Below are positions 2,103-47,329 of a DNA stretch of 64,000 bases, in pieces. The notes below the pieces were generated by a model that was not told the DNA's origin, searched no databases, and was given only the letters and a program-made list of their open reading frames with translations. This DNA comes from an uncultured Gammaproteobacteria bacterium. GTDB taxonomy: Bacteria > Patescibacteriota > Patescibacteriia > Magasanikbacterales > UBA922. The stretch spans positions 83,697 through 147,696 of the forward strand of contig CAZTEU010000002.1 of NCBI GenBank assembly GCA_964612105.1, given 5' to 3'. The position numbers were made by a program, and so were the translations under genes. Each line of letters starts with the position of its first letter. Position 1 is the first letter of the stretch.

Positions 2103-3173
2103 ATGGAAGACAAATATATAAAAATCAAAGATAAGTTTAATGAACTAGAGCAGGCACTCCAAGACCCTGCTGTTATTGGTGATCAAAACAAGCTAAGGAA
2201 AATTTCTCAGGAATACAGTGAACTAAAAGATGTTGTAGAAAAAATAAAAGAGTTGGACAACATATCAAAGGAGCTTGGTGAGGTAGAGGCAATAATAGCA
2301 AGCGAACAAGATGAGGAGCTCAGGACCCTTGCGTCTGGAGAAGTATTAGAACTTCGTGATAGGAAAAAAATTATGGAGGATGAGTTGGCTATCGCAACCA
2401 GACCAAAAGATCCTATGGATAAGAAAAATGTAATAATAGAAATACGAGCGGGTGCTGGTGGTGATGAGGCTGCTCTTTTTGCTGGAGATCTTATGCGCAT
2501 GTACTCAAAGTACGCAGAAAGCAAAAAGTGGAAAGTACAACTTCTAAGTGAAAATAGAATCGGAATTGGTGGATATAAAGAAGTTATATTTTCCATAGAA
2601 GGAACAAACGTATATGCAGACATGAAATACGAGATGGGGGTTCATAGAGTACAGAGAGTTCCAGATACAGAAAAACAGGGGCGTATCCATACATCAACAG
2701 CTAGTGTGGCTGTACTTCCAGAAATAGAGGAAGAGGAAATTGAAATTAAACCACAAGACCTAAGAATAGATACATATTGTGCGAGTGGTCATGGTGGACA
2801 GAGTGTTAACACAACCTACTCTGCGGTGCGCATTACTCACATACCAACCGGATTGGTGGCACAGTGCCAAGATGAAAAATCCCAGTTAAAAAATAAAGAT
2901 AAAGCAATGGGAGTTTTACGTGCCCGTATCTTTGAAGCTGAACAAGAAAAGAAAGATGCGGAGCTCTCTGAAAAGAGAAAAAAACAAATAGGAACTGGTG
3001 ATAGAAGTGAAAAAATTCGTACATACAACTATCCTCAGGATAGGATTACAGATCATCGAATAAAAGAGAGTTGGAATAACATAAACACTATTTTAGAGGG
3101 TGATATTTCTAGTGTTATAGAATTACTGCGTAAAGCTGATTATGAAAAATTGGACGAAGGAGAAGACAGTTAA
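2103..3173 (+). CDS. prfA: peptide chain release factor 1
   Basis: GGQ motif ([11 protein letters not shown]) and [17 protein letters not shown] (RF1-type PxT region); followed by prmC. Confidence 0.9.
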
Positions 3174-4650: not shown

Positions 4651-4751
4651 TCAGATTGCTCACATGCTGAGCGAAAAGATCACGGACAACCTGCGGGAGC
4701 TTCGCGCCCCCGCTCGTCCACCTGATAATAAAACTTGTTTTCAGATGGATA

Positions 4752-4782
4752 TAAAAAACTCCCATTAGGGAGTTTTTTGTTT
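4752..4782. terminator. bidirectional Rho-independent terminator
   Basis: aaaaaaCTCCCattaGGGAGttttttg lies between convergent genes 4126..4650(+) and 4781..5842(-). Confidence 0.6.
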
Positions 4783-5842
4783 ACTTATATTCCACTTCCC
4801 CTCTTGCATTTATCACCTCTATCCATATCTTTCCTGGCTTGATTGGAATTTCTTCACCTTCGCTGTTCAGCCATTTTGTTTTTTGTTCTCGTCCAATCTT
4901 CATCCAAGTTCCGTCTGCTCTGTGTCCATCACGGAATACTTGCACAGGACCTGCTCCCTGTGTCTGAATATGCAATCTACCAATTGCATCTACAACAGTG
5001 GAGGTTACGTGTTGGACAATTATAGTATCTGCAACAATTGGTCTCAAATCTTTGTCTACATGACGCACTCCACCTTGGTAACGGTCATACTGCAAGGTGC
5101 TTGTGTTAAATTTCCAGTTAGCCTGATACGTTTCCCCTAAAAACGTGACTGTAATATCTTCTGTGCAACCATCCTCACACGCATCCATTTCATTGTACGC
5201 CCATGATTCGGTTGTTGTTGTACCTCTACCCTCACCATAATCTTCCCATGCTTTATTCCAATGATCTTCGGAAGTATATACATTATGAGGAGCATACCTG
5301 TCTTTGCTTCTCCAATAATACCAACCTCTATAGAATTCGTTTAAATCAAAAAGGTCTATTTGTTTAATCTTTTCGAGCGCTTCCGGTGAGCCACCTACAT
5401 GCATATACATTGGATCATTATATTCGCTGACCCAGTCTAAGTAGTAAGGACGAGCACTGCGTACAGGCCCTACTTTTTTTACCTCAGCATCTTTTGGAAA
5501 GAGTAATAGGAATCTGGAATAATTAGCTTCTACCGGTGCCTCATATACAACAGAAGCATCTACAAGCCCAGACTGAGGGCGTGCATCTGGATGGTTTTCT
5601 ACCATAATAGCTACTACATTAGAAACAGTCTCATCTTCATTGTCTACACATTCTCCATTAAGAGTTTTGCGGAAATCACACTTAATTTTACTCTTTCCAT
5701 CAAAAAAATCTGTGACGAAAGAACCGTCACGAACAGGTTGTGTTATAAACTGATACCCCAGCCAAGCAATCAGACCAAATGCTACAAAAAAAACCACAAC
5801 AGCAAGGGAGTATACATATTTTGATTGTTGTTTCTTGTTCAT
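4781..5842 (-). CDS. membrane-anchored DUF3048 (YerB-like) family protein
   Basis: N-terminal TM anchor; VVAIMVENHPDARPQSGLVDASVVYEAPVEANYSRFLLLF resembles the DUF3048 N-domain signature. Confidence 0.6.
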   Translation of the reverse strand: MNKKQQSKYVYSLAVVVFFVAFGLIAWLGYQFITQPVRDGSFVTDFFDGKSKIKCDFRKTLNGECVDNEDETVSNVVAIMVENHPDARPQSGLVDASVVYEAPVEANYSRFLLLFPKDAEVKKVGPVRSARPYYLDWVSEYNDPMYMHVGGSPEALEKIKQIDLFDLNEFYRGWYYWRSKDRYAPHNVYTSEDHWNKAWEDYGEGRGTTTTESWAYNEMDACEDGCTEDITVTFLGETYQANWKFNTSTLQYDRYQGGVRHVDKDLRPIVADTIIVQHVTSTVVDAIGRLHIQTQGAGPVQVFRDGHRADGTWMKIGREQKTKWLNSEGEEIPIKPGKIWIEVINARGEVEYK

Positions 5843-12954: not shown

Positions 12955-15057
<2,103 letters not shown>

Positions 15058-15081
15058 AACTTAATTTTAAAAAGGAGGGGT

Positions 15082-15492
15082 ATGGGGGGATTTTTTTATA
15101 GAACTAAAGCGAATAGGTGCTGTAAAACCTCATTTACAGAAGCTATGGATTTTGGTTTAGCTAAATTACCAAAAAGCGCAAAGAAAACTCGGAGGCGTGC
15201 TTTTGTGCGTTCGATGTATTTTTCAAAGCAGAAAATATTTTTAGATCTTTTTTGGAGGCATTTATATCAGAAAAATATCAGTAATAGGAGGAGGAGAATT
15301 CGTCTGTTGGAAGCTGGTTTGGAATTGATTAGAAAATCAAAATTAGAACCTTCAAAAATACAAAATCCAAATAATTCTAAAGAATATTTTTATAAGTTTT
15401 TAGGAAAAACAAAGGACGGATATCCATTCTGTGTGCAAATTAAAGAAGATAAAAATAAACAAAAATGGCTTATGTCAATATTTCCAAAATAA
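15082..15492 (+). CDS. small basic hypothetical protein, paralog of 45407..45823 (shared KIFLD(L/I)FWRHLxQKN ... FP core)
   Basis: ~40% identity to the 138-aa protein at 45.4 kb; strong SD (AAAGGAGGGGtATG) unlike host genes; starts 22 nt after the gyrB stop. Confidence 0.5.
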   Translation: MGGFFYRTKANRCCKTSFTEAMDFGLAKLPKSAKKTRRRAFVRSMYFSKQKIFLDLFWRHLYQKNISNRRRRIRLLEAGLELIRKSKLEPSKIQNPNNSKEYFYKFLGKTKDGYPFCVQIKEDKNKQKWLMSIFPK

Positions 15493-15550
15493 AAAAGACC
15501 AGGGCCACTGATGTGTGGTTTATAAACCACCGCCTCAGGTCTTTTCATAT
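15493..15550 (+). repeat. 3' structured element of the paralog mini-cassette: AAAAAGACC ... nested hairpin ... AGGTCTT
   Basis: Same architecture as 45325..45406 on the minus strand (outer AAGACC/GGTCTT pairing, inner stem-loop with different sequence). Confidence 0.35.
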
Positions 15551-15589
15551 CCTCATTGTAGCACAATGAAAAACTCTGTCAATACAAAC

Positions 15590-15617
15590 AAAAAACCCCG
15601 TTTGGGGATTTTTTATT
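15590..15617. terminator. bidirectional Rho-independent terminator
   Basis: aaaaaaCCCCGtttGGGGattttttatt. Confidence 0.6.
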
Positions 15618-15762
15618 CTCTCAAGACTCCTAGTGTTAAGAAACTTGAGGGATTGGACTTTTGATGAGAGTCCAAACTCCGAGCGAGGCGTAGTGTGGTT
15701 TGTCGTCTAGCAACATCACCACAAACTTCGTCTGTTCGGCCTCGCTTGGTTGGAGCGAGGTC

Positions 15763-16710
15763 TTAGAGCATTGGATCAGTCGCCTTCTTGGGACGATCGA
15801 TCCAGTCACTCATGCTGATCACACGACCAGCCTGAGCGGACTTGACACCCTTGGTCTTCGTCAGGTGCTTGGCGATGAATTTCAGAATCTCATCCTTGGT
15901 GAAGGTGCTGTCACCGAACGGGGCAAAGACCGAGGTCTTCTTCCCGATGGTGAACTTGGCGTCCTTCTCGTACTCGAGGTACAGGGCAAAGATGGGATCC
16001 TTTTTGGTCTCGTAGGTGTTGAAGACCCCGGGCGTGTTCTCCATGAAGCGGTCCGTCCAACCACCGTCATCCGACGGGATTGGTGGTCTGAAATGGACAA
16101 CGAGCCTATGATCACGGACGACAGCCAGCCAGTGGTGCGTGCCGGTCTTCTTGGAGACCATCTTGCCGACACCAGCCGGTCGGATGTAGTTGGACCAATA
16201 AGGGAAGTCCCGCACGAAACGCTCTTCCAGACTCGGCATGACCTCACAGAGGATTCTCTCCTCCTGCTCGCACCAGAACTGGGTCGCCCACAGCAGGTTC
16301 TTGTAGGTTCCCAACTCGCGCTTGCAGACGCCGAGCTTGTGATCAGCATCGCGGAGATCCTTCAGGTCTCTCTGCTGAGCCTCTTTGTCCTTCTTCTGTT
16401 TCTCTTCCGCCTGAGCAACAGGCCAACAGCTTGCCAGGAAGATACCAACTTCCCGCTTGAGCTCGGTGGCGTCCTTCTTGACCACCTTGTCACGGCGGAA
16501 GCTCGCGTACGAACCACGGTACTCGCTGATCAGCGAATACGCCCTGTTCTTCCGCTGAGTATCACCAGACTTGTCCGCACACTCGACCGCCTCTTTGAGG
16601 AGGTTGTCGACCACGCTGTACGTGACCTCTTCCTCTTCCCTCTCAGTCTGGCAACCCAGGACGGACATGCTGGTCGCAACGAGCACGAGACACACAAACA
16701 AATTCTTCAT
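15763..16710 (-). CDS. lipoprotein of unknown function (GC-rich island II)
   Basis: Start at MKNLFVCLVLVATSMSVLGCQ (signal peptide + lipobox) with GGGAG RBS; ~58% GC. The antisense ORF 15700..16737 is judged spurious. Confidence 0.55.
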   Translation of the reverse strand: MKNLFVCLVLVATSMSVLGCQTEREEEEVTYSVVDNLLKEAVECADKSGDTQRKNRAYSLISEYRGSYASFRRDKVVKKDATELKREVGIFLASCWPVAQAEEKQKKDKEAQQRDLKDLRDADHKLGVCKRELGTYKNLLWATQFWCEQEERILCEVMPSLEERFVRDFPYWSNYIRPAGVGKMVSKKTGTHHWLAVVRDHRLVVHFRPPIPSDDGGWTDRFMENTPGVFNTYETKKDPIFALYLEYEKDAKFTIGKKTSVFAPFGDSTFTKDEILKFIAKHLTKTKGVKSAQAGRVISMSDWIDRPKKATDPML

Positions 16711-16816
16711 CTCAATCTCCCGCTCCCGTTGCATTAGGGAGCTCAGTTTCGATACGCGTAGGACCTCCCCACGCACACCAGATAAAGCTCCATAAATACA
16801 CTATTATGGACGTACA

Positions 16817-44733: not shown

Positions 44734-45324
44734 TTACATCTTACCCAATATCTTTAAGGCTTCTCTCAACAAGTCTTCCGTATCCTTATCTTTACTGTCT
44801 AAATCTTGCACAACAGACTTTACAGCTTCTTTGCTATAACCCATTGTTACAAGCCCTTCTATAACCTCCGCAAGAACAGCTCCATTTCCTTGATTGTCTG
44901 CTATCTCAGACAAAGATGTAACTTTGTTTTTTAGCTCCACAACAATTCTTTCTGCTGTCTTCTTACCCATCCCCTGCACAGCTGTGAGATATTCTACATC
45001 TCCTCTTGCTATTGCAGATTTTATTTCCTCAATAGAACCAAGTGATAGTATGTGCATTGCACTTTTTGGCCCTACGCTTTTTACAGATAACAGAAGTGAG
45101 AAGAAGTCTCTGTGCGCGTTGGATTCGAAACCAAAAAGCTCTAAAGAATTGTCTGAAACCTTAAGATATGTTGGTATTTGTACTTCCTGGTTAATTTCAT
45201 AACCAGAGAGCTGTAGGCGTGAAAGCCTTACACTATAACCAACACCACCAGATGTTAGTATTGTGACTTGATCTGTATTTTTATCTACCACATGTCCGGA
45301 TAGTATAGTTATCATACTTGACAA
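44734..45324 (-). CDS. ruvA: Holliday junction DNA helicase RuvA
   Basis: OB-fold N-domain, tandem HhH (SVKSVGPKSA...GMGKKTAERIV), C-terminal domain III. Confidence 0.85.
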   Translation of the reverse strand: MSSMITILSGHVVDKNTDQVTILTSGGVGYSVRLSRLQLSGYEINQEVQIPTYLKVSDNSLELFGFESNAHRDFFSLLLSVKSVGPKSAMHILSLGSIEEIKSAIARGDVEYLTAVQGMGKKTAERIVVELKNKVTSLSEIADNQGNGAVLAEVIEGLVTMGYSKEAVKSVVQDLDSKDKDTEDLLREALKILGKM

Positions 45325-45406
45325 TATTTTCTTAAAGTGTTAGAGTAATTTTGATGAAGACCTCTCGGCCGTAGTTCATATACTACACCTGGCAGAAGGT
45401 CTTTTT
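45325..45406 (-). repeat. 3' structured element of the second paralog mini-cassette (AAAAAGACC ... nested hairpin ... AGGTCTTC)
   Basis: Minus strand reads aaaaagaccttctgccaggtgtagtatatgaactacggccgagaggtcttc; same architecture as 15493-15550. Confidence 0.35.
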
Positions 45407-45823
45407 CTATTCCCAAGGAAATACAGATATTAAATATTTCACTCCTGTTTTCTTTTCCTCTACAACCTGGACAGCAAATAACATATTGTTTGGTGTTTCT
45501 CCAATAAAACGGTGTAGTATTCTAGATTTGTTCTTTTTATTAATCTTTGAGACTGGTTCTATTGCGGTGTTTTGTATAAGATCAATTGAACAAGGAAACA
45601 GGCTTAGTCTTCTCTTCCTATCACGCCAATTCTTTTGGTGTAAGTGTCTCCAAAAGATATCTAAAAATATCTTTTCTTTCTTAAAAAACTTGGAACGAAC
45701 ATAGGGTCTCCTTTTTGATTTACTTTTTATCCCATCAAAAAAGCCAATGGCCTTCCTTTCAATATCTCGATATCTACCCCCAGAAATAGGATATCTATTT
45801 GTTTTGTAAACCCCCCTCTTCAT
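45407..45823 (-). CDS. small basic hypothetical protein, paralog of 15082..15492
   Basis: Shared core KIFLDIFWRHLHQKN...ISVFP; SD AAGGAGGgtgtATG; starts 18 nt after the pepA stop. Confidence 0.5.
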   Translation of the reverse strand: MKRGVYKTNRYPISGGRYRDIERKAIGFFDGIKSKSKRRPYVRSKFFKKEKIFLDIFWRHLHQKNWRDRKRRLSLFPCSIDLIQNTAIEPVSKINKKNKSRILHRFIGETPNNMLFAVQVVEEKKTGVKYLISVFPWE

Positions 45824-45841
45824 ACACCCTCCTTTATTAAG

Positions 45842-47329
45842 TTATCGCAGGTATTCTACCATGGTCTGCACACCAAATCCATTCGCACCAGAACGGATAT
45901 ATGGTTTTCCTTTGCCACCATAGTATGAACAAGATAGATCAATATGTGCCCAAGGATAGTCTGTAAAATATTGTAAAAATGCCGCAGCAGTAGAAGCACC
46001 TCCATGTCCGCGACCACCAACTTGCCCAGAATTCTTAATATCTGCAATCTCACATTTCATTGCCTCGCTATACTCTTCTCCCAGTGGTAATCTCCATAAT
46101 TGCTCTCCAGATTCCTCAGAACTGGCTATAAGTTTATTTACAATCTTTTCTTCTTTAGAAAATACAGCAGAGCGCTCATTACCAAGAGCCACCATGCAGG
46201 CACCAGTGAGTGTGGCGAAGTCTATAACCTCTTTTGGTTTGTATTTTTTTGCATAACATAATGCATCCGCAAGAATTAGTCTACCTTCTGCGTCTGTATT
46301 ATCTATTAGGACGCTTTTTCCACCCATGCTTACTAATATGTCATCCGGTCGATACGAATTTCCTCCCGGCATATTCTCACATGTTGGTATAAGTCCAATA
46401 ATATTTTTCTTTAAACCAAGAGAGGCTGCTGCCTTTATGGTTCCAAGAACAGTTGCAGCACCAAGCATATCAAACTTCATGTCTGTCATGTAGTTTGCAG
46501 GCTTTAATGAAAGCCCTCCTGAGTCAAAAGTAATTCCTTTTCCAACCAGAACAGTGGGGCTTTGGTTTTTTAGAGCATTTTTATACTCTAGTATAATAAA
46601 CTTTGGCTCTTCTACGGAACCCCTAGCCACACCAAGCAAGCACCCCATTCCTAATCTTTCTATTTCTGGAAGAGATAGTACTCTTGTGCGTAAATTTCTG
46701 TATTGTCTCGCTAAATCTTCTGATTTTTCTGCCAGAAGAGTTGGTGTCATAACAGATGGTGGAACATTACCGAGCTCTCTGGCATAATTTACTGATTCTG
46801 CAATCAATTGTCCGTCATCCATGCCACGTGTCATTGCTGTCTTTATTTTCTGATCAAAAGACCCAACAAGCGCCACTTTCTTGATAGGGCTTACTCGCCC
46901 ATCTTTTTCTTTATGAACATCGTAGCTGTAGTTAGACAGCTCCAGAGCAACTATTGTTTCGCTTCCTATCTTTTTTGCTCCAATCTTCTTAGTAAGAGCA
47001 GACGGAATCATTAATGAAAGAGAGGTTATTTTTTTACTTTGGCAAAATAGTACAGATGAACCAACAGCTTCTTTCCATTTACGGATTGTTATATTTTTAT
47101 ATTCTCCTATTCCAACTAAAAGAATGCGGGGAATTTGTTTATCTTTTGTATATAAAAGAGTTGTTTGAGATTTCTTCCCCTCAAAGTCTTTGGTGTCTAT
47201 AATATTGCTAATTTGCCCATCTAATTTCTTGTCTAAATTCTTCACAAAAGGCTCTAAGCCCTTCCCTTCCCATATAGGCAAAATAAGACACTGTGTTTTT
47301 CCATTTTCTTGTGTAACTTCTGTTAACAT
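45842..47329 (-). CDS. pepA: leucyl aminopeptidase (M17 family)
   Basis: NTDAEGRL motif and metal-binding residues of M17 peptidases. Confidence 0.85.
   Translation of the reverse strand: MLTEVTQENGKTQCLILPIWEGKGLEPFVKNLDKKLDGQISNIIDTKDFEGKKSQTTLLYTKDKQIPRILLVGIGEYKNITIRKWKEAVGSSVLFCQSKKITSLSLMIPSALTKKIGAKKIGSETIVALELSNYSYDVHKEKDGRVSPIKKVALVGSFDQKIKTAMTRGMDDGQLIAESVNYARELGNVPPSVMTPTLLAEKSEDLARQYRNLRTRVLSLPEIERLGMGCLLGVARGSVEEPKFIILEYKNALKNQSPTVLVGKGITFDSGGLSLKPANYMTDMKFDMLGAATVLGTIKAAASLGLKKNIIGLIPTCENMPGGNSYRPDDILVSMGGKSVLIDNTDAEGRLILADALCYAKKYKPKEVIDFATLTGACMVALGNERSAVFSKEEKIVNKLIASSEESGEQLWRLPLGEEYSEAMKCEIADIKNSGQVGGRGHGGASTAAAFLQYFTDYPWAHIDLSCSYYGGKGKPYIRSGANGFGVQTMVEYLR

What the first reader, a model, noticed from the sequence alone, without database searches (positions are those of the whole stretch)
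15058..15550. Two-copy mini-cassette family: small basic protein gene inserted 18-22 nt after host stop codons, with a conserved SD leader and a conserved 3' stem-loop
The 136- and 138-aa proteins (15082..15492 + and 45407..45823 -) are clear paralogs (shared KIFLD(L/I)FWRHLxQKN ... F/YxVQxxE(D/E)K...L(M/I)S(I/V)FP). Both start with the same leader, (A)CTTAAT-A/T-rich-AAAGGAGGG-(g/t)T-ATG, placed immediately after the stop codon of a housekeeping gene (gyrB, pepA). Both carry a strong SD that host genes lack. Both end in an AAAAAGACC...AGGTCTT outer pairing enclosing an inner hairpin whose sequence differs but whose structure is conserved (compensatory changes). This looks like a ~470-bp selfish or mobile cassette (gene + structured 3' end) rather than two ordinary genes. 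The C-terminal pattern is vaguely reminiscent of RelE/BrnT-like small nuclease toxins, but no antitoxin partner is adjacent.
Basis: seen in the sequence. Interest (0 to 1): 0.65.

Follow-up and report, generated by a model that had tools for sequence, protein, structure and literature searches.

The report
RNase-like gene with convergent antisense RNA
The two "mini-cassettes" are copies of a widespread, undescribed two-part module of Patescibacteria (CPR): a small predicted RNase gene always followed by a strongly promoted ~55-nt hairpin RNA gene on the opposite strand, most likely a toxin with an RNA antitoxin.

Summary
Two paralogous genes (136 and 138 aa, 43% identity) sit directly after gyrB and pepA. 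They share a leader with a strong Shine-Dalgarno (SD) sequence, and each is followed by a related hairpin.

The interpretation needs correcting. The 3' element is not a cassette end or an ordinary terminator. It is a separate small-RNA gene on the opposite strand, with a near-consensus TTGACA-N16/17-(TGn)TAnAAT promoter, a covarying ~55-nt hairpin and a U-tail that abuts the stop codon. G·U pairs place the functional RNA on the antisense strand (95.6% of cells paired, against 83.7% on the sense strand).

Every family gene with enough downstream sequence (about 120 loci from many Patescibacteria lineages) has this partner. Rfam, Pfam, PADLOC, PHROGs and NCBIfam have no match for either part.

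The protein folds confidently (pLDDT 94.7) into helices plus a four-stranded sheet. It has a near-invariant His in a helix and an invariant Ser in strand 4, which is the colicin D/PBECR-type BECR RNase configuration, but the homology signals are weak.

The module lies in variable contexts, is often multi-copy, and is missing from the same gyrB-secE site in the closest relatives. Orphan small RNAs occur next to decayed genes.

Best reading: a toxin-antitoxin-like module with an RNA antitoxin. Toxicity and transcription are untested.

The parts
15058..15081 (+). Leader of gene A: AACTTAATTTTAAAAAGGAGGGGT. It starts directly after the gyrB stop codon (15055-15057) and carries a perfect SD sequence.
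   Evidence: Read directly. Shared with copy B. A perfect AGGAGG is present in only 2 of 58 window genes.
15082..15492 (+). Gene A, 136 aa. Small basic protein, predicted BECR-type (PBECR/colicin D-like) endoribonuclease, with His60 in helix 55-62 and Ser132 in strand 4.
15491..15548 (-). Small RNA A, about 56 nt, antisense and convergent to gene A: 5'-(AU)GAAAAGACCUGAGGCGGUGGUUUAUAAACCACACAUCAGUGGCCCUGGUCUUUUUU-3'. Its U-tail overlaps the TAA stop codon of gene A. The same hairpin read on the + strand is the terminator of gene A. The 5' end is predicted from the -10 box, not mapped.
   Evidence: Covariance-model hit 15491-15551(-), 48.1 bits, E 5.6e-9. Fold -19.6 kcal/mol. Family covariation.
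15555..15582 (-). Promoter of small RNA A on the minus strand: -35 TTGACA (15582..15577), 16-nt spacer, TGc extended -10 TACAAT (15563..15555).
   Evidence: Read directly. Promoter conserved across copies.
45824..45841 (-). Leader of gene B: CTTAATAAAGGAGGGTGT. It starts directly after the pepA stop codon (45844..45842) and carries a perfect SD sequence.
45407..45823 (-). Gene B, 138 aa, paralog of gene A (43% identity). It keeps the His (FWRHL) and the Ser (LISVFP).
45353..45407 (+). Small RNA B, about 55 nt, antisense and convergent to gene B: 5'-GAUGAAGACCUCUCGGCCGUAGUUCAUAUACUACACCUGGCAGAAGGUCUUUUUC-3'. It ends at the stop codon of gene B. The 5' end is predicted, not mapped.
   Evidence: Covariance-model hit 45349-45407(+), 56.7 bits, E 3.1e-11. 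Fold -20.5 kcal/mol, z -4.1.
45318..45346 (+). Promoter of small RNA B on the plus strand: -35 TTGACA (45318..45323), 17-nt spacer, -10 TAGAGT (45341..45346). The -35 box lies 3 nt from the ruvA start codon, which is on the other strand.
   Evidence: Read directly. ruvA identified.

Best explanation
Each copy is a two-gene, toxin-antitoxin-like module of Patescibacteria.

Gene 1 encodes a ~136-aa basic protein with a BECR-type (colicin D/PBECR-like) endoribonuclease fold. This is the putative toxin or effector.

Gene 2 lies on the opposite strand, immediately downstream and convergent. It has a near-consensus sigma-70 promoter that fires straight into a long imperfect hairpin followed by a U-run. 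The product would be a ~55-nt highly structured small RNA whose 3' end abuts or overlaps the stop codon of gene 1.

The same DNA is the terminator of gene 1, so the small RNA is perfectly complementary to the 3' end of the mRNA. The proposed mechanism is as follows:
- The abundant small RNA pairs with the mRNA 3' hairpin through a kissing interaction that extends to a duplex.
- This removes the protective 3' structure, probably through RNase III, or interferes with termination of translation at the stop codon.
- RNase production is thereby kept low.
- When the balance is disturbed, the RNase is made and cleaves cellular RNA.

Shown here: the paralogy, the obligate gene-element pairing, the RNA structure and its strand, promoter conservation, the variable and patchy genomic location, the orphan small RNAs, and the confident fold with conserved His and Ser.

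Inferred: RNase activity, toxicity, actual transcription of the small RNA, and the antisense mode of action.
For: (1) The pairing is obligate.
- In loci found by the RNA pattern, the gene lies directly upstream of the element.
- In 80 loci found by protein pattern, 72 of 86 gene hits have the element by nhmmer.

(2) The RNA is real and lies on the antisense strand.
- 20 pairs, 95.6% of cells paired, 16 of 20 pairs with compensatory changes.
- 0 of 500 shuffles reach the observed values, and slid controls stay at or below 66%.
- There are 209 G·U cells against 16 A·C cells. Pairing is 95.6% on the antisense strand and 83.7% on the sense strand.
- The consensus folds at -22.2 kcal/mol (z -4.95) antisense, against -13.3 kcal/mol sense.

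(3) The promoter is conserved. 67 of 100 unique copies match TTGACA/TATAAT at 10 or more of 12 positions with a 16-18-nt spacer, against 1.4% of control windows. 75 of 100 have a TGn extended -10.

(4) The coupling is tight. The G/C stem starts a median of 7 nt after the stop codon, and in 24 of 68 modules the A-run overlaps the stop codon.

(5) The protein looks like a BECR RNase.
- The AF2 model has pLDDT 94.7 and pTM 0.87, with helices followed by four antiparallel strands.
- His60 is conserved in at least 90% of members and lies in helix 55-62. Ser132 is invariant and lies in strand 4. This is the BECR active-site configuration described for colicin D and PBECR (PMC5512222).
- Weak Pfam hits fall on PBECR2, PBECR3 and DUF4258.
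- Foldseek on viral structures puts phage polyvalent and MuF-C proteins on top (E 3.5e-3, prob 1.0, TMq 0.51-0.54 over about 140 columns).
- RelE, BrnT and CdiA-CT recur at the top of the non-significant PDB lists.

(6) It behaves like a selfish or conflict module.
- No conserved neighbour gene.
- Empty site in the nearest relatives.
- Two copies in this window, and two or more copies in single MAGs or loci.
- In the RNA-ascertained set, 33-35 loci have an intact gene, 3-5 a decayed gene and 12 no gene, out of 50.
- The domain is fused to the C-terminus of HNH+STAND NTPase proteins, and that fusion has no small RNA after it.

(7) There is no room for a protein antitoxin in either window copy.

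(8) The same small RNA also follows other nuclease genes: a DUF1016 gene 18 nt upstream in L002, and bona fide PBECR3 genes in L095 and L029. This fits an mRNA-level, protein-independent mode of action.
Against: - No expression, toxicity or RNase data exist.
- The BECR assignment rests on weak signals. No PDB match reaches E<0.05, no Pfam hit passes the gathering score, and hhalign against two single PBECR3 sequences found nothing.
- I could not check that His60 and Ser132 are close in space.
- Canonical type I toxins are small hydrophobic peptides and their antitoxin RNAs are labile. Here the protein is soluble and basic, and the RNA is a very stable hairpin.
- A cis-antisense pair keeps its complementarity whatever the sequence. 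Antisense action alone therefore does not explain why unpaired bulge and loop bases (GGUU..., ACCACAC) are nearly invariant. That pattern suggests recognition by a protein.
- In this genome both copies have a strong SD and appear to be co-transcribed with essential genes (gyrB, pepA). That is odd for a dangerous toxin.
- The PBECR3 association is through 73-106-nt spacers, and close PBECR3 homologs lack this small RNA.
Confidence: 0.55

Rival explanations
1. The parts are the same, but the small RNA acts on the protein rather than on the mRNA. The hairpin binds the RNase as a pseudo-substrate or inhibitor, in a type III-like way, or it is itself the RNase's processing substrate.
For: Unpaired positions of the RNA are nearly invariant: the inner stem with its flanks GUGGUU...ACCACAC, and the GCGG/CGGCC internal loop. 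The 60-nt region keeps about 79% identity where the proteins are only 45-55% identical. A purely cis-antisense RNA has no need for a conserved sequence. The two window paralogs have clearly different small RNAs, as expected for insulated cognate pairs. Precedent: ToxN is inhibited by direct binding of ToxI RNA (PMC8167048).
Against: The architecture is unlike known type III systems. Those have the RNA upstream in the same transcript, built of tandem repeats that the toxin processes. Here there is a single hairpin, convergent, with its own promoter. The same small RNA follows unrelated genes, including DUF1016 in L002 and cupin-like and other genes at orphan sites. That is hard to reconcile with specific protein recognition, although those copies may simply be orphans. 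I could not test protein-RNA coevolution.
Confidence: 0.2
2. It is not a toxin system. It is a Patescibacteria-specific ribonucleoprotein or regulatory pair, in which a small RNA-binding or RNA-processing protein and its dedicated small RNA have a physiological (housekeeping or regulatory) role.
For: The pair is spread over many Patescibacteria lineages, including Saccharibacteria, Peregrinibacteria, Peribacteria, Uhr-, Moran-, Magasanik-, Falkow-, Kuenen-, Doudna- and Gracilibacteria. The RNA is strongly conserved and has a near-consensus promoter. In this genome it is co-oriented with, and probably co-transcribed with, gyrB and pepA. An inactive PBECR domain in phage Mu MuF is thought to bind RNA (PMC5512222). 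A DnaA-box-like motif lies next to the small-RNA promoter in about 10 loci.
Against: The module is absent from the orthologous site in the nearest relatives. Its position is non-syntenic. Paralogs within one genome are only 43% identical. Orphan RNAs and decayed genes occur. The domain is fused to conflict-system STAND/HNH proteins. Only about 294 clusters at 50% identity were found among 1.84 billion representatives.
Confidence: 0.12
3. One reading: a mobile mini-cassette whose 3' stem-loop is a DNA- or mRNA-level recombination or recognition structure (like an integron attC site or an IS200/IS605 end), and whose gene serves its mobility or selfishness.
For: The two window units have almost equal length (about 525 bp) and begin within 1-2 nt of a host stop codon. 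The location is variable and an empty site exists. A 7-nt repeat GATAACT lies at both edges of unit B. Orphan elements lie within 30 nt of the stop codons of unrelated genes.
Against: The structure is selected as RNA on the strand opposite to the gene (G·U 209 against A·C 16 cells), and a conserved promoter drives it. There is no HUH, integrase or transposase signature. No integron-like arrays were seen. Unit A has no repeat at its edges. There are no copies in viral, phage or plasmid collections. Most family members have their own promoter and variable distances to the upstream gene.
Confidence: 0.05
4. These are two ordinary paralogous genes that happen to share a bidirectional intrinsic terminator. 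The apparent promoter is a chance or irrelevant match.
For: The hairpin with its flanking A-run and U-run is a textbook bidirectional terminator. AT-rich genomes give many promoter-like matches.
Against: The element occurs only after this gene family: 2 of 2 copies in the window and none elsewhere in 64 kb. Its sequence is conserved across phyla. The promoter sits at a fixed distance and scores 10 or more of 12 in 67% of copies, against 1.4% of controls. The strand asymmetry in G·U pairs also argues against it.
Confidence: 0.03

Closest known systems
Type I toxin-antitoxin systems with 3'-overlapping convergent antisense RNAs (B. subtilis txpA/RatA and bsrG/SR4; E. faecalis par, Fst RNAI/RNAII)
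   Same: The toxin gene and the antitoxin RNA gene are convergent and overlap at their 3' ends, which gives full complementarity there. In par the two transcripts share one bidirectional terminator (PMC8167048). The module is compact, has no protein antitoxin, sits in accessory locations and is multi-copy.
   Different: The known toxins are hydrophobic peptides of about 30-60 aa. Here the protein is a 136-aa soluble basic protein predicted to be an RNase. The small RNA consists of essentially nothing but the shared terminator hairpin (about 55 nt), with no extra interaction region such as DRa/DRb. Its sequence is conserved across phyla. The host range is Patescibacteria.
SymE/SymR (E. coli type I system with a nuclease-like toxin)
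   Same: It is a precedent for a type I system whose toxin is a soluble nuclease-type protein of about 110 aa, and whose antitoxin RNA is more stable than usual (PMC8167048).
   Different: SymR overlaps the 5' end and ribosome-binding site of symE. SymE has an AbrB-like fold and is under SOS control. Here the overlap is at the 3' end and the fold is BECR-like.
Type III toxin-antitoxin systems (ToxIN, AbiQ/AntiQ, CptIN, TenpIN)
   Same: An endoRNase toxin is neutralised by a small structured RNA, and the RNA sequence is constrained by protein recognition. That would explain the conserved unpaired bases here.
   Different: In type III systems the RNA lies upstream in the same operon, is made of tandem repeats and is processed by the toxin. 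The toxins are ToxN/AbiQ-like. None of these features is present here.
PBECR domains and colicin D-type BECR endoRNases (Iyer et al. 2017, PMC5512222); RelE, BrnT, CdiA-CT
   Same: The core is helices followed by a four-stranded antiparallel sheet, with a conserved His in a helix and Ser/Thr in strand 4. Weak Pfam hits fall on PBECR2/3 and DUF4258. The best structural neighbours are phage polyvalent and MuF-C proteins. In the STAND-fused form the His is replaced by Arg, as in one PBECR family.
   Different: No model passes its threshold. There is an extra N-terminal ~50-residue part (two short helices and a beta-hairpin). The protein is chromosomal and solo in Patescibacteria rather than part of phage polyvalent proteins. 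Known BECR toxins are neutralised by protein antitoxins or immunity proteins, not by RNA.

Membership tests
Type I toxin-antitoxin system | The antitoxin is an antisense RNA encoded in the same locus, with a region fully complementary to the toxin mRNA. | tested here: met
   By sequence prediction only. A conserved promoter plus hairpin plus U-run lies on the opposite strand and overlaps the gene's terminator and stop codon. No transcript data.
Type I toxin-antitoxin system | The toxin is a small (usually <60 aa) hydrophobic, membrane-active peptide. | tested here: not met
   The protein is 136/138 aa, basic and soluble, with an alpha/beta fold. Exceptions exist (SymE, RalR).
Type I toxin-antitoxin system | The protein is toxic when expressed, and the RNA represses its synthesis. 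| not testable with these tools
   Needs expression experiments.
Type III toxin-antitoxin system | The RNA antitoxin lies upstream of the toxin in one operon, separated from it by a terminator. | tested here: not met
   The RNA is downstream, convergent, and has its own promoter.
Type III toxin-antitoxin system | The antitoxin is made of tandem repeats that the toxin processes. | tested here: not met
   It is a single hairpin. Only occasionally are whole small-RNA genes duplicated in tandem (L075, L155, L118).
Type III toxin-antitoxin system | The toxin belongs to the ToxN/AbiQ, CptN or TenpN families. | tested here: not met
   No Pfam or PADLOC match.
BECR-fold endoRNases (PBECR / colicin D type) | [quoted passage not shown] | tested here: met
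   AF2 model with pLDDT 94.7: helices 55-62, 66-73 and 76-85, then strands 91-94, 102-109, 115-122 and 128-135.
BECR-fold endoRNases (PBECR / colicin D type) | A conserved His (or Arg) in the helix and Ser/Thr in strand 4. | tested here: met
   His60 is conserved in at least 90% of members and Ser132 in 70 of 70. I did not verify equivalence with the catalytic positions by superposition.
BECR-fold endoRNases (PBECR / colicin D type) | A significant match to the family profiles (Pfam PBECR1-5, DUF4258, RelE/ParE). | tested here: not met
   Only 4 of 70 members give sub-threshold hits (PBECR2 0.0019, PBECR3 0.012 twice, DUF4258 0.024). hhalign against two PBECR3 sequences gave probability 0.1.
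BECR-fold endoRNases (PBECR / colicin D type) | Structural similarity to solved or predicted members. | tested here: inconclusive
Integron gene cassette (attC) | A promoterless ORF plus a 3' attC site that folds as single-stranded DNA, arranged in arrays next to intI. | tested here: not met
   No arrays and no integrase. The structure is selected as RNA on the antisense strand and has its own promoter.
IS200/IS605-type element | A HUH Y1 transposase (or TnpB) and subterminal hairpins at both ends. | tested here: not met
   No HUH motif (only one conserved His). No Pfam hit. The hairpin is at one end only.
Ordinary intrinsic terminator | A generic GC-rich hairpin plus T-run, not gene-specific and not conserved in sequence. 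| tested here: not met
   It does have terminator form, but it is specific to this gene family, conserved across phyla, and coupled to a reverse promoter.
Known RNA families (Rfam 15) | A match at gathering score. | tested here: not met
   No match in the window at gathering threshold. Only chance-level hits at E>0.6 around the element.

The most novel reading that the evidence does not exclude
The convergent promoter-hairpin unit may be a portable RNA antitoxin of a new kind for nuclease effectors in Patescibacteria. In this reading, a single ~55-nt terminator-hairpin RNA silences its partner gene at the mRNA 3' end and also docks on the BECR RNase through its invariant bulge and loop bases, making it a type I/type III hybrid. 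It would be able to serve different nucleases: this family, PBECR3 and DUF1016. That would be the first RNA antitoxin described for a BECR-fold RNase, and a new conserved small-RNA family specific to the CPR.
Probability: 0.3. Interest if true: 0.8.

Novelty: new variant of a known kind. Interest (0 to 1): 0.66.

Why it matters
Patescibacteria (CPR) make up a large share of bacterial diversity, yet almost none of their non-coding RNAs or conflict systems have been characterised. This finding pins down three things:
- a small-RNA family with strong covariation support that is absent from Rfam;
- a protein family absent from Pfam, NCBIfam, PADLOC and PHROGs;
- an invariant genetic link between the two, across many Patescibacteria lineages.

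If the RNA is the antitoxin, BECR RNases would gain a new, RNA-based mode of control. Known BECR toxins use protein antitoxins or immunity proteins. The type I repertoire would also extend to a soluble RNase toxin in a phylum where no RNA-regulated toxin-antitoxin system has been reported.

The module is small (about 525 bp) and self-contained, so the hypothesis can be tested directly in a heterologous host.

Tried and rejected
- **Known RNA families and tRNAs.** Rfam at gathering threshold on the whole window found nothing. Rfam at E-value threshold around the element gave only chance-level hits. ARAGORN found no tRNA or tmRNA.
- **Protein family libraries.** Pfam, PADLOC, PHROGs and NCBIfam, on the two proteins and on 70 family members, gave no family above threshold.
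- **Solved structures by sequence.** A profile search of PDB sequences gave nothing meaningful.
- **Profile comparison with PBECR3.** hhalign of the family profile against two single PBECR3 proteins gave no signal.
- **Conserved neighbour gene or protein antitoxin.** All-against-all clustering of ORFs within ±4.5 kb found none.
- **Phage or plasmid carriage.** The protein is absent from IMG/VR, INPHARED and PLSDB. The four IMG/VR matches to the RNA pattern were chance.
- **R1 small RNA as a general partner of PBECR3 genes.** Rejected. Close PBECR3 homologs lack it and have a different conserved 3' element.
- **Small-RNA loop pairing with the 5' end or start region of the mRNA.** Examined by eye across loop variants. 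Only AU-rich 4-6-mers match and nothing covaries, so I dropped it.
- **Target-site duplications.** Only a 7-mer (GATAACT) at unit B and nothing at unit A. Not pursued.
- **The search for related loci with the 70-sequence alignment.** Failed because the alignment was too diverse. The 6-sequence alignment worked.
Full report
**1. The observation**

The window encodes two paralogs, 15082..15492 (+, 136 aa) and 45407..45823 (-, 138 aa). They share 43% identity over 102 residues (E 5e-30).

The upstream ORFs are GyrB and a Peptidase_M17 aminopeptidase. The paralogs start 24 and 18 nt after those stop codons.

Both leaders read (A)ACTTAAT...AAAGGAGGG(G/TG)TATG. Among 58 likely genes in the window, only these two have a perfect AGGAGG at -18..-4.

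Each gene is followed by AAAAAGACC...GGTCTT enclosing a 5-bp inner hairpin with a compensatory change.

A profile HMM and a covariance model of the element each find exactly two copies in 64 kb, both right after the paralogs. A family HMM on the six-frame translation finds only the two genes.

The organism is a Candidatus Magasanikbacteria relative (Patescibacteria/CPR), judged from GyrB.

**2. What the 3' element really is**

Homologs fetched from elsewhere (L001, L002) carry the same sequence after the stop codon, and L002 has extra copies.

Read on the strand opposite to the gene, the conserved block is TTGACA-N16/17-(TGn)TAnAAT, then 7-9 nt, then a long imperfect hairpin, then a U-run. That is a complete small-RNA gene convergent with the protein gene.

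The consensus RNA is 5'-GAAAAAGGCUUUCGGCCGUGGUUUAUAUACCACACUUAGCGGAAGGUCUUUUUU-3'. It folds at -22.2 kcal/mol (z -4.95). The sense-strand version reaches only -13.3 kcal/mol.

I built a covariance model (R1) and aligned 90 copies. The results:
- 20 pairs, 95.6% of cells paired.
- 16 of 20 pairs show compensatory double changes.
- No shuffle out of 500 reaches the observed values.
- Slid controls fall to 66% or less.

G·U wobble cells outnumber A·C cells 209 to 16. The same helices are therefore 95.6% paired on the antisense strand and 83.7% on the sense strand. The selected structure belongs to the antisense RNA.

Among 100 unique copies, 67 match TTGACA/TATAAT at 10 or more of 12 positions with a 16-18-nt spacer, against 1.4% of control windows. 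75 have the TGn extension.

The G/C stem begins a median of 7 nt after the stop codon. In 24 of 68 modules the A-run (the complement of the RNA's U-tail) overlaps the stop codon.

In the window:
- Small RNA A is about 15548..15491 (-), with -10 TACAAT at 15560..15555 and -35 TTGACA at 15582..15577.
- Small RNA B is about 45353..45407 (+), with -35 at 45318..45323 and -10 TAGAGT at 45341..45346.

Rfam 15 has no matching family.

**3. Distribution and obligate pairing**

A pattern scan of one genome per species returned about 55 true elements. Most are in MAGs labelled Patescibacteria: Saccharibacteria, Peregrini-, Peri-, Uhr-, Moran-, Magasanik-, Kerfeld-, Falkow-, Kuenen-, Portnoy-, Doudna-, Gracilibacteria, Parcubacteria and Paceibacterota. 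A few are in MAGs labelled Gammaproteobacteria or Nitrospirota. I did not verify that binning.

In most of these loci the protein gene lies directly upstream of the element.

The converse test scanned metagenomes with protein patterns only and gave 80 loci. 72 of 86 gene hits have the element by nhmmer.

The pairing is therefore obligate from the gene's side. The 60-nt RNA region keeps about 79% identity between modules whose proteins are only 45-55% identical.

**4. The protein**

Word-indexed search found 5 relatives. A full HMM scan found 294 clusters at 50% identity, mostly 130-145 aa. No Pfam, PADLOC, PHROGs, NCBIfam or PDB-sequence match passes threshold.

AlphaFold2 with 70 sequences gives a confident model (pLDDT 94.7, pTM 0.87). 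It has two short helices and a beta-hairpin, then helices 55-62, 66-73 and 76-85, then four antiparallel strands at 91-94, 102-109, 115-122 and 128-135.

His60 (FWxHL) is conserved in at least 90% of members and sits in the first of these three helices. Ser132 is invariant and sits in strand 4. [quoted passage not shown] They describe a common active site of a His in the helix and Ser/Thr in strand 4, as in colicin D and the phage PBECR domains (PMC5512222).

Independent weak signals point the same way:
- Sub-threshold Pfam hits of four members to PBECR2, PBECR3 and DUF4258.
- Top Foldseek matches in BFVD to phage polyvalent and MuF-C proteins, the architectures that carry PBECR domains (E 3.5e-3, prob 1.0, TMq 0.51-0.54 over about 140 columns).
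- RelE, CdiA-CT(Kp342) and BrnT at the top of the non-significant PDB lists.

**5. Genomic behaviour**

No neighbouring gene family recurs around the module.

The nearest relatives (GyrB 83-86% identical) keep the backbone ftsW - hypothetical - gyrB - [spacer] - secE - nusG - rplK. The spacer differs in each:
- A bare 157 nt in a complete 1.23-Mb genome (L122).
- A 75-aa ORF plus a GC-rich segment in L123/L124.
- A DUF4407 gene in a JGI contig.
- Module A plus a GC-rich island in the window.

Multiple copies per genome or locus are common:
- Two in this window.
- Two contigs of one Peregrinibacteria MAG (L026, L043).
- Two contigs of one Peribacteria MAG (L108, L117).
- L046.
- Three RNA copies in L002.

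In the RNA-ascertained set of 50 evaluable copies, 33-35 have an intact gene and 3-5 have a decayed one (L008, L018, L094). Twelve have none and sit after unrelated genes.

Two of these orphans lie 73-106 nt after bona fide PBECR3 genes (E 5e-18 and 6e-11). One L002 copy lies 18 nt after a DUF1016 nuclease gene.

The domain also occurs at the C-terminus of HNH + STAND-NTPase proteins. In the one such locus examined, His60 is replaced by Arg and no small RNA follows.

Neither the protein nor the RNA occurs in IMG/VR, INPHARED phages or PLSDB plasmids.

Elsewhere the gene usually has its own -10 box 7-10 nt before the ATG, which suggests leaderless transcripts. The SD leader and the position right behind a host stop codon are peculiar to this genome.

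**6. Most likely mechanism**

The anatomy is that of a toxin-antitoxin-like pair with an RNA antitoxin. An effector RNase gene has an mRNA that ends in a hairpin. A constitutively strong convergent promoter makes the exact complement of that hairpin.

The best-supported mode is antisense, type I-like. The two complementary hairpins kiss and extend to a ~55-bp duplex that reaches the stop codon. This exposes the mRNA to RNase III and 3' exonucleases, or disturbs termination.

It fits three observations: the 3'-end location in a family with mostly leaderless mRNAs (which have no ribosome-binding site to mask), the presence of the same RNA behind other nuclease genes, and orphan RNAs that outlive decayed genes.

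Antisense action does not explain the near-invariance of unpaired bases (GGUU..., ACCACAC, the CGGCC/GCGG internal loop). That is the main argument for the rival in which the RNA also, or instead, binds the protein in a type III-like way.

All functional steps are inferred: transcription of the RNA, RNase activity, toxicity and neutralisation.

**7. Comparison with known systems**

In layout, the closest systems are Gram-positive type I systems with 3' overlap, and the par locus, whose two RNAs share a bidirectional terminator (PMC8167048). SymE/SymR is a precedent for a soluble nuclease-type type I toxin with a stable antitoxin RNA.

The module fails the usual type I toxin criterion (a small hydrophobic peptide). 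It fails all architectural criteria of type III (RNA upstream, tandem repeats, ToxN-like toxin).

The protein meets the structural and active-site criteria of BECR/PBECR RNases but not the profile-match criterion. Known BECR toxins are controlled by protein antitoxins or immunity proteins. I found no report of an RNA partner, nor of RNA-regulated toxin-antitoxin systems in the CPR.

**8. Verdict**

It missed the key point that the 3' structure is a separate antisense small-RNA gene and the likely antitoxin.

I rate it a new variant of a known kind (an RNA-antitoxin toxin-antitoxin module). It brings a new protein family and a new small-RNA family specific to Patescibacteria.

The main caveats are the lack of any expression or activity data and the weak homology support for the RNase assignment.

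Noticed in passing
window 15600-16800: A GC-rich island (55-57% GC, against 31-40% around it) carries a 337-aa ORF (15763..16776, minus strand) with no Pfam match. It lies next to module A inside the gyrB-secE spacer. Relatives have an empty spacer or different cargo there, so this spacer is an insertion hot spot.
   Followed up: partly
L036, L108, L115, L038, L114, L085 (copy at 780), L053 and others: 10-25 nt upstream of the small-RNA -35 box: A DnaA-box-like TGTGGATAA lies next to the small-RNA promoter in about 10 of 55 copies, roughly 4-fold above the locus background. It is not present at the window copies. It may indicate DnaA-linked control of the small RNA.
   Followed up: partly
L205 2957-3060, L208 772-870, L209 1838-1930, L211 about 2972-3030, L095 3084-3185: Solo PBECR3 genes of Patescibacteria carry their own, different conserved 3' non-coding element (CTCCGCAGTAGAGCCGAnTTTCTGCnTTTCAGCyCC, preceded by a covarying hairpin). 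TTGACA-like boxes often lie on the reverse strand further downstream. This suggests that 3' RNA elements are a general theme for solo BECR RNase genes in this phylum.
   Followed up: partly
L121 (99% identical to window 14644-15454): A near-identical strain contig diverges from the window at 15454, inside gene A. This truncates the protein before strand 4 and separates it from the small RNA. The sequence that follows is unrelated. It is either a natural disruption of the gene or an assembly chimera.
   Followed up: partly
L002 1128-3400: There are three small-RNA copies (1128, 2249, 3107) and direct repeats of about 300 bp flanking the protein gene. A DUF1016 nuclease gene is bracketed by two small-RNA copies, and gene fragments lie further downstream (4713-4927). 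The region also holds KilA-N and T4SS-pilin genes.
   Followed up: partly
window 45846..45840 and 45313..45307 (minus strand): The 7-mer GATAACT occurs at both edges of unit B, at the pepA stop codon and at the ruvA start (ATGATAACT). Unit A has no counterpart. It may be chance or microhomology.
   Followed up: no
window 45313-45407: ruvA (RuvA_N/HHH_5/RuvA_C; likely ATG at 45315) starts 3 nt from the small RNA B -35 box and is co-oriented with pepA and gene B. ruvA must therefore be transcribed by read-through of the module's hairpin or from a promoter inside the module.
   Followed up: no
P0074 / L212 203-2260; P0099: The family domain occurs as the C-terminal domain of HNH + STAND (NACHT/AAA_16) NTPase proteins. 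In L212 the conserved His is Arg and no small RNA follows the gene.
   Followed up: partly
window, all genes: Most genes of this genome lack an SD sequence. Only 5 of 58 have GGAGG within 22 nt of the start, and many starts are preceded by A/T-rich ...AAAAT.
   Followed up: no
window 15589-15620: A second, generic bidirectional terminator-like hairpin (AAAAAACCCCGTTTGGGGATTTTTT) lies immediately outside the small RNA A -35 box, between the module and the GC-rich island.
   Followed up: no
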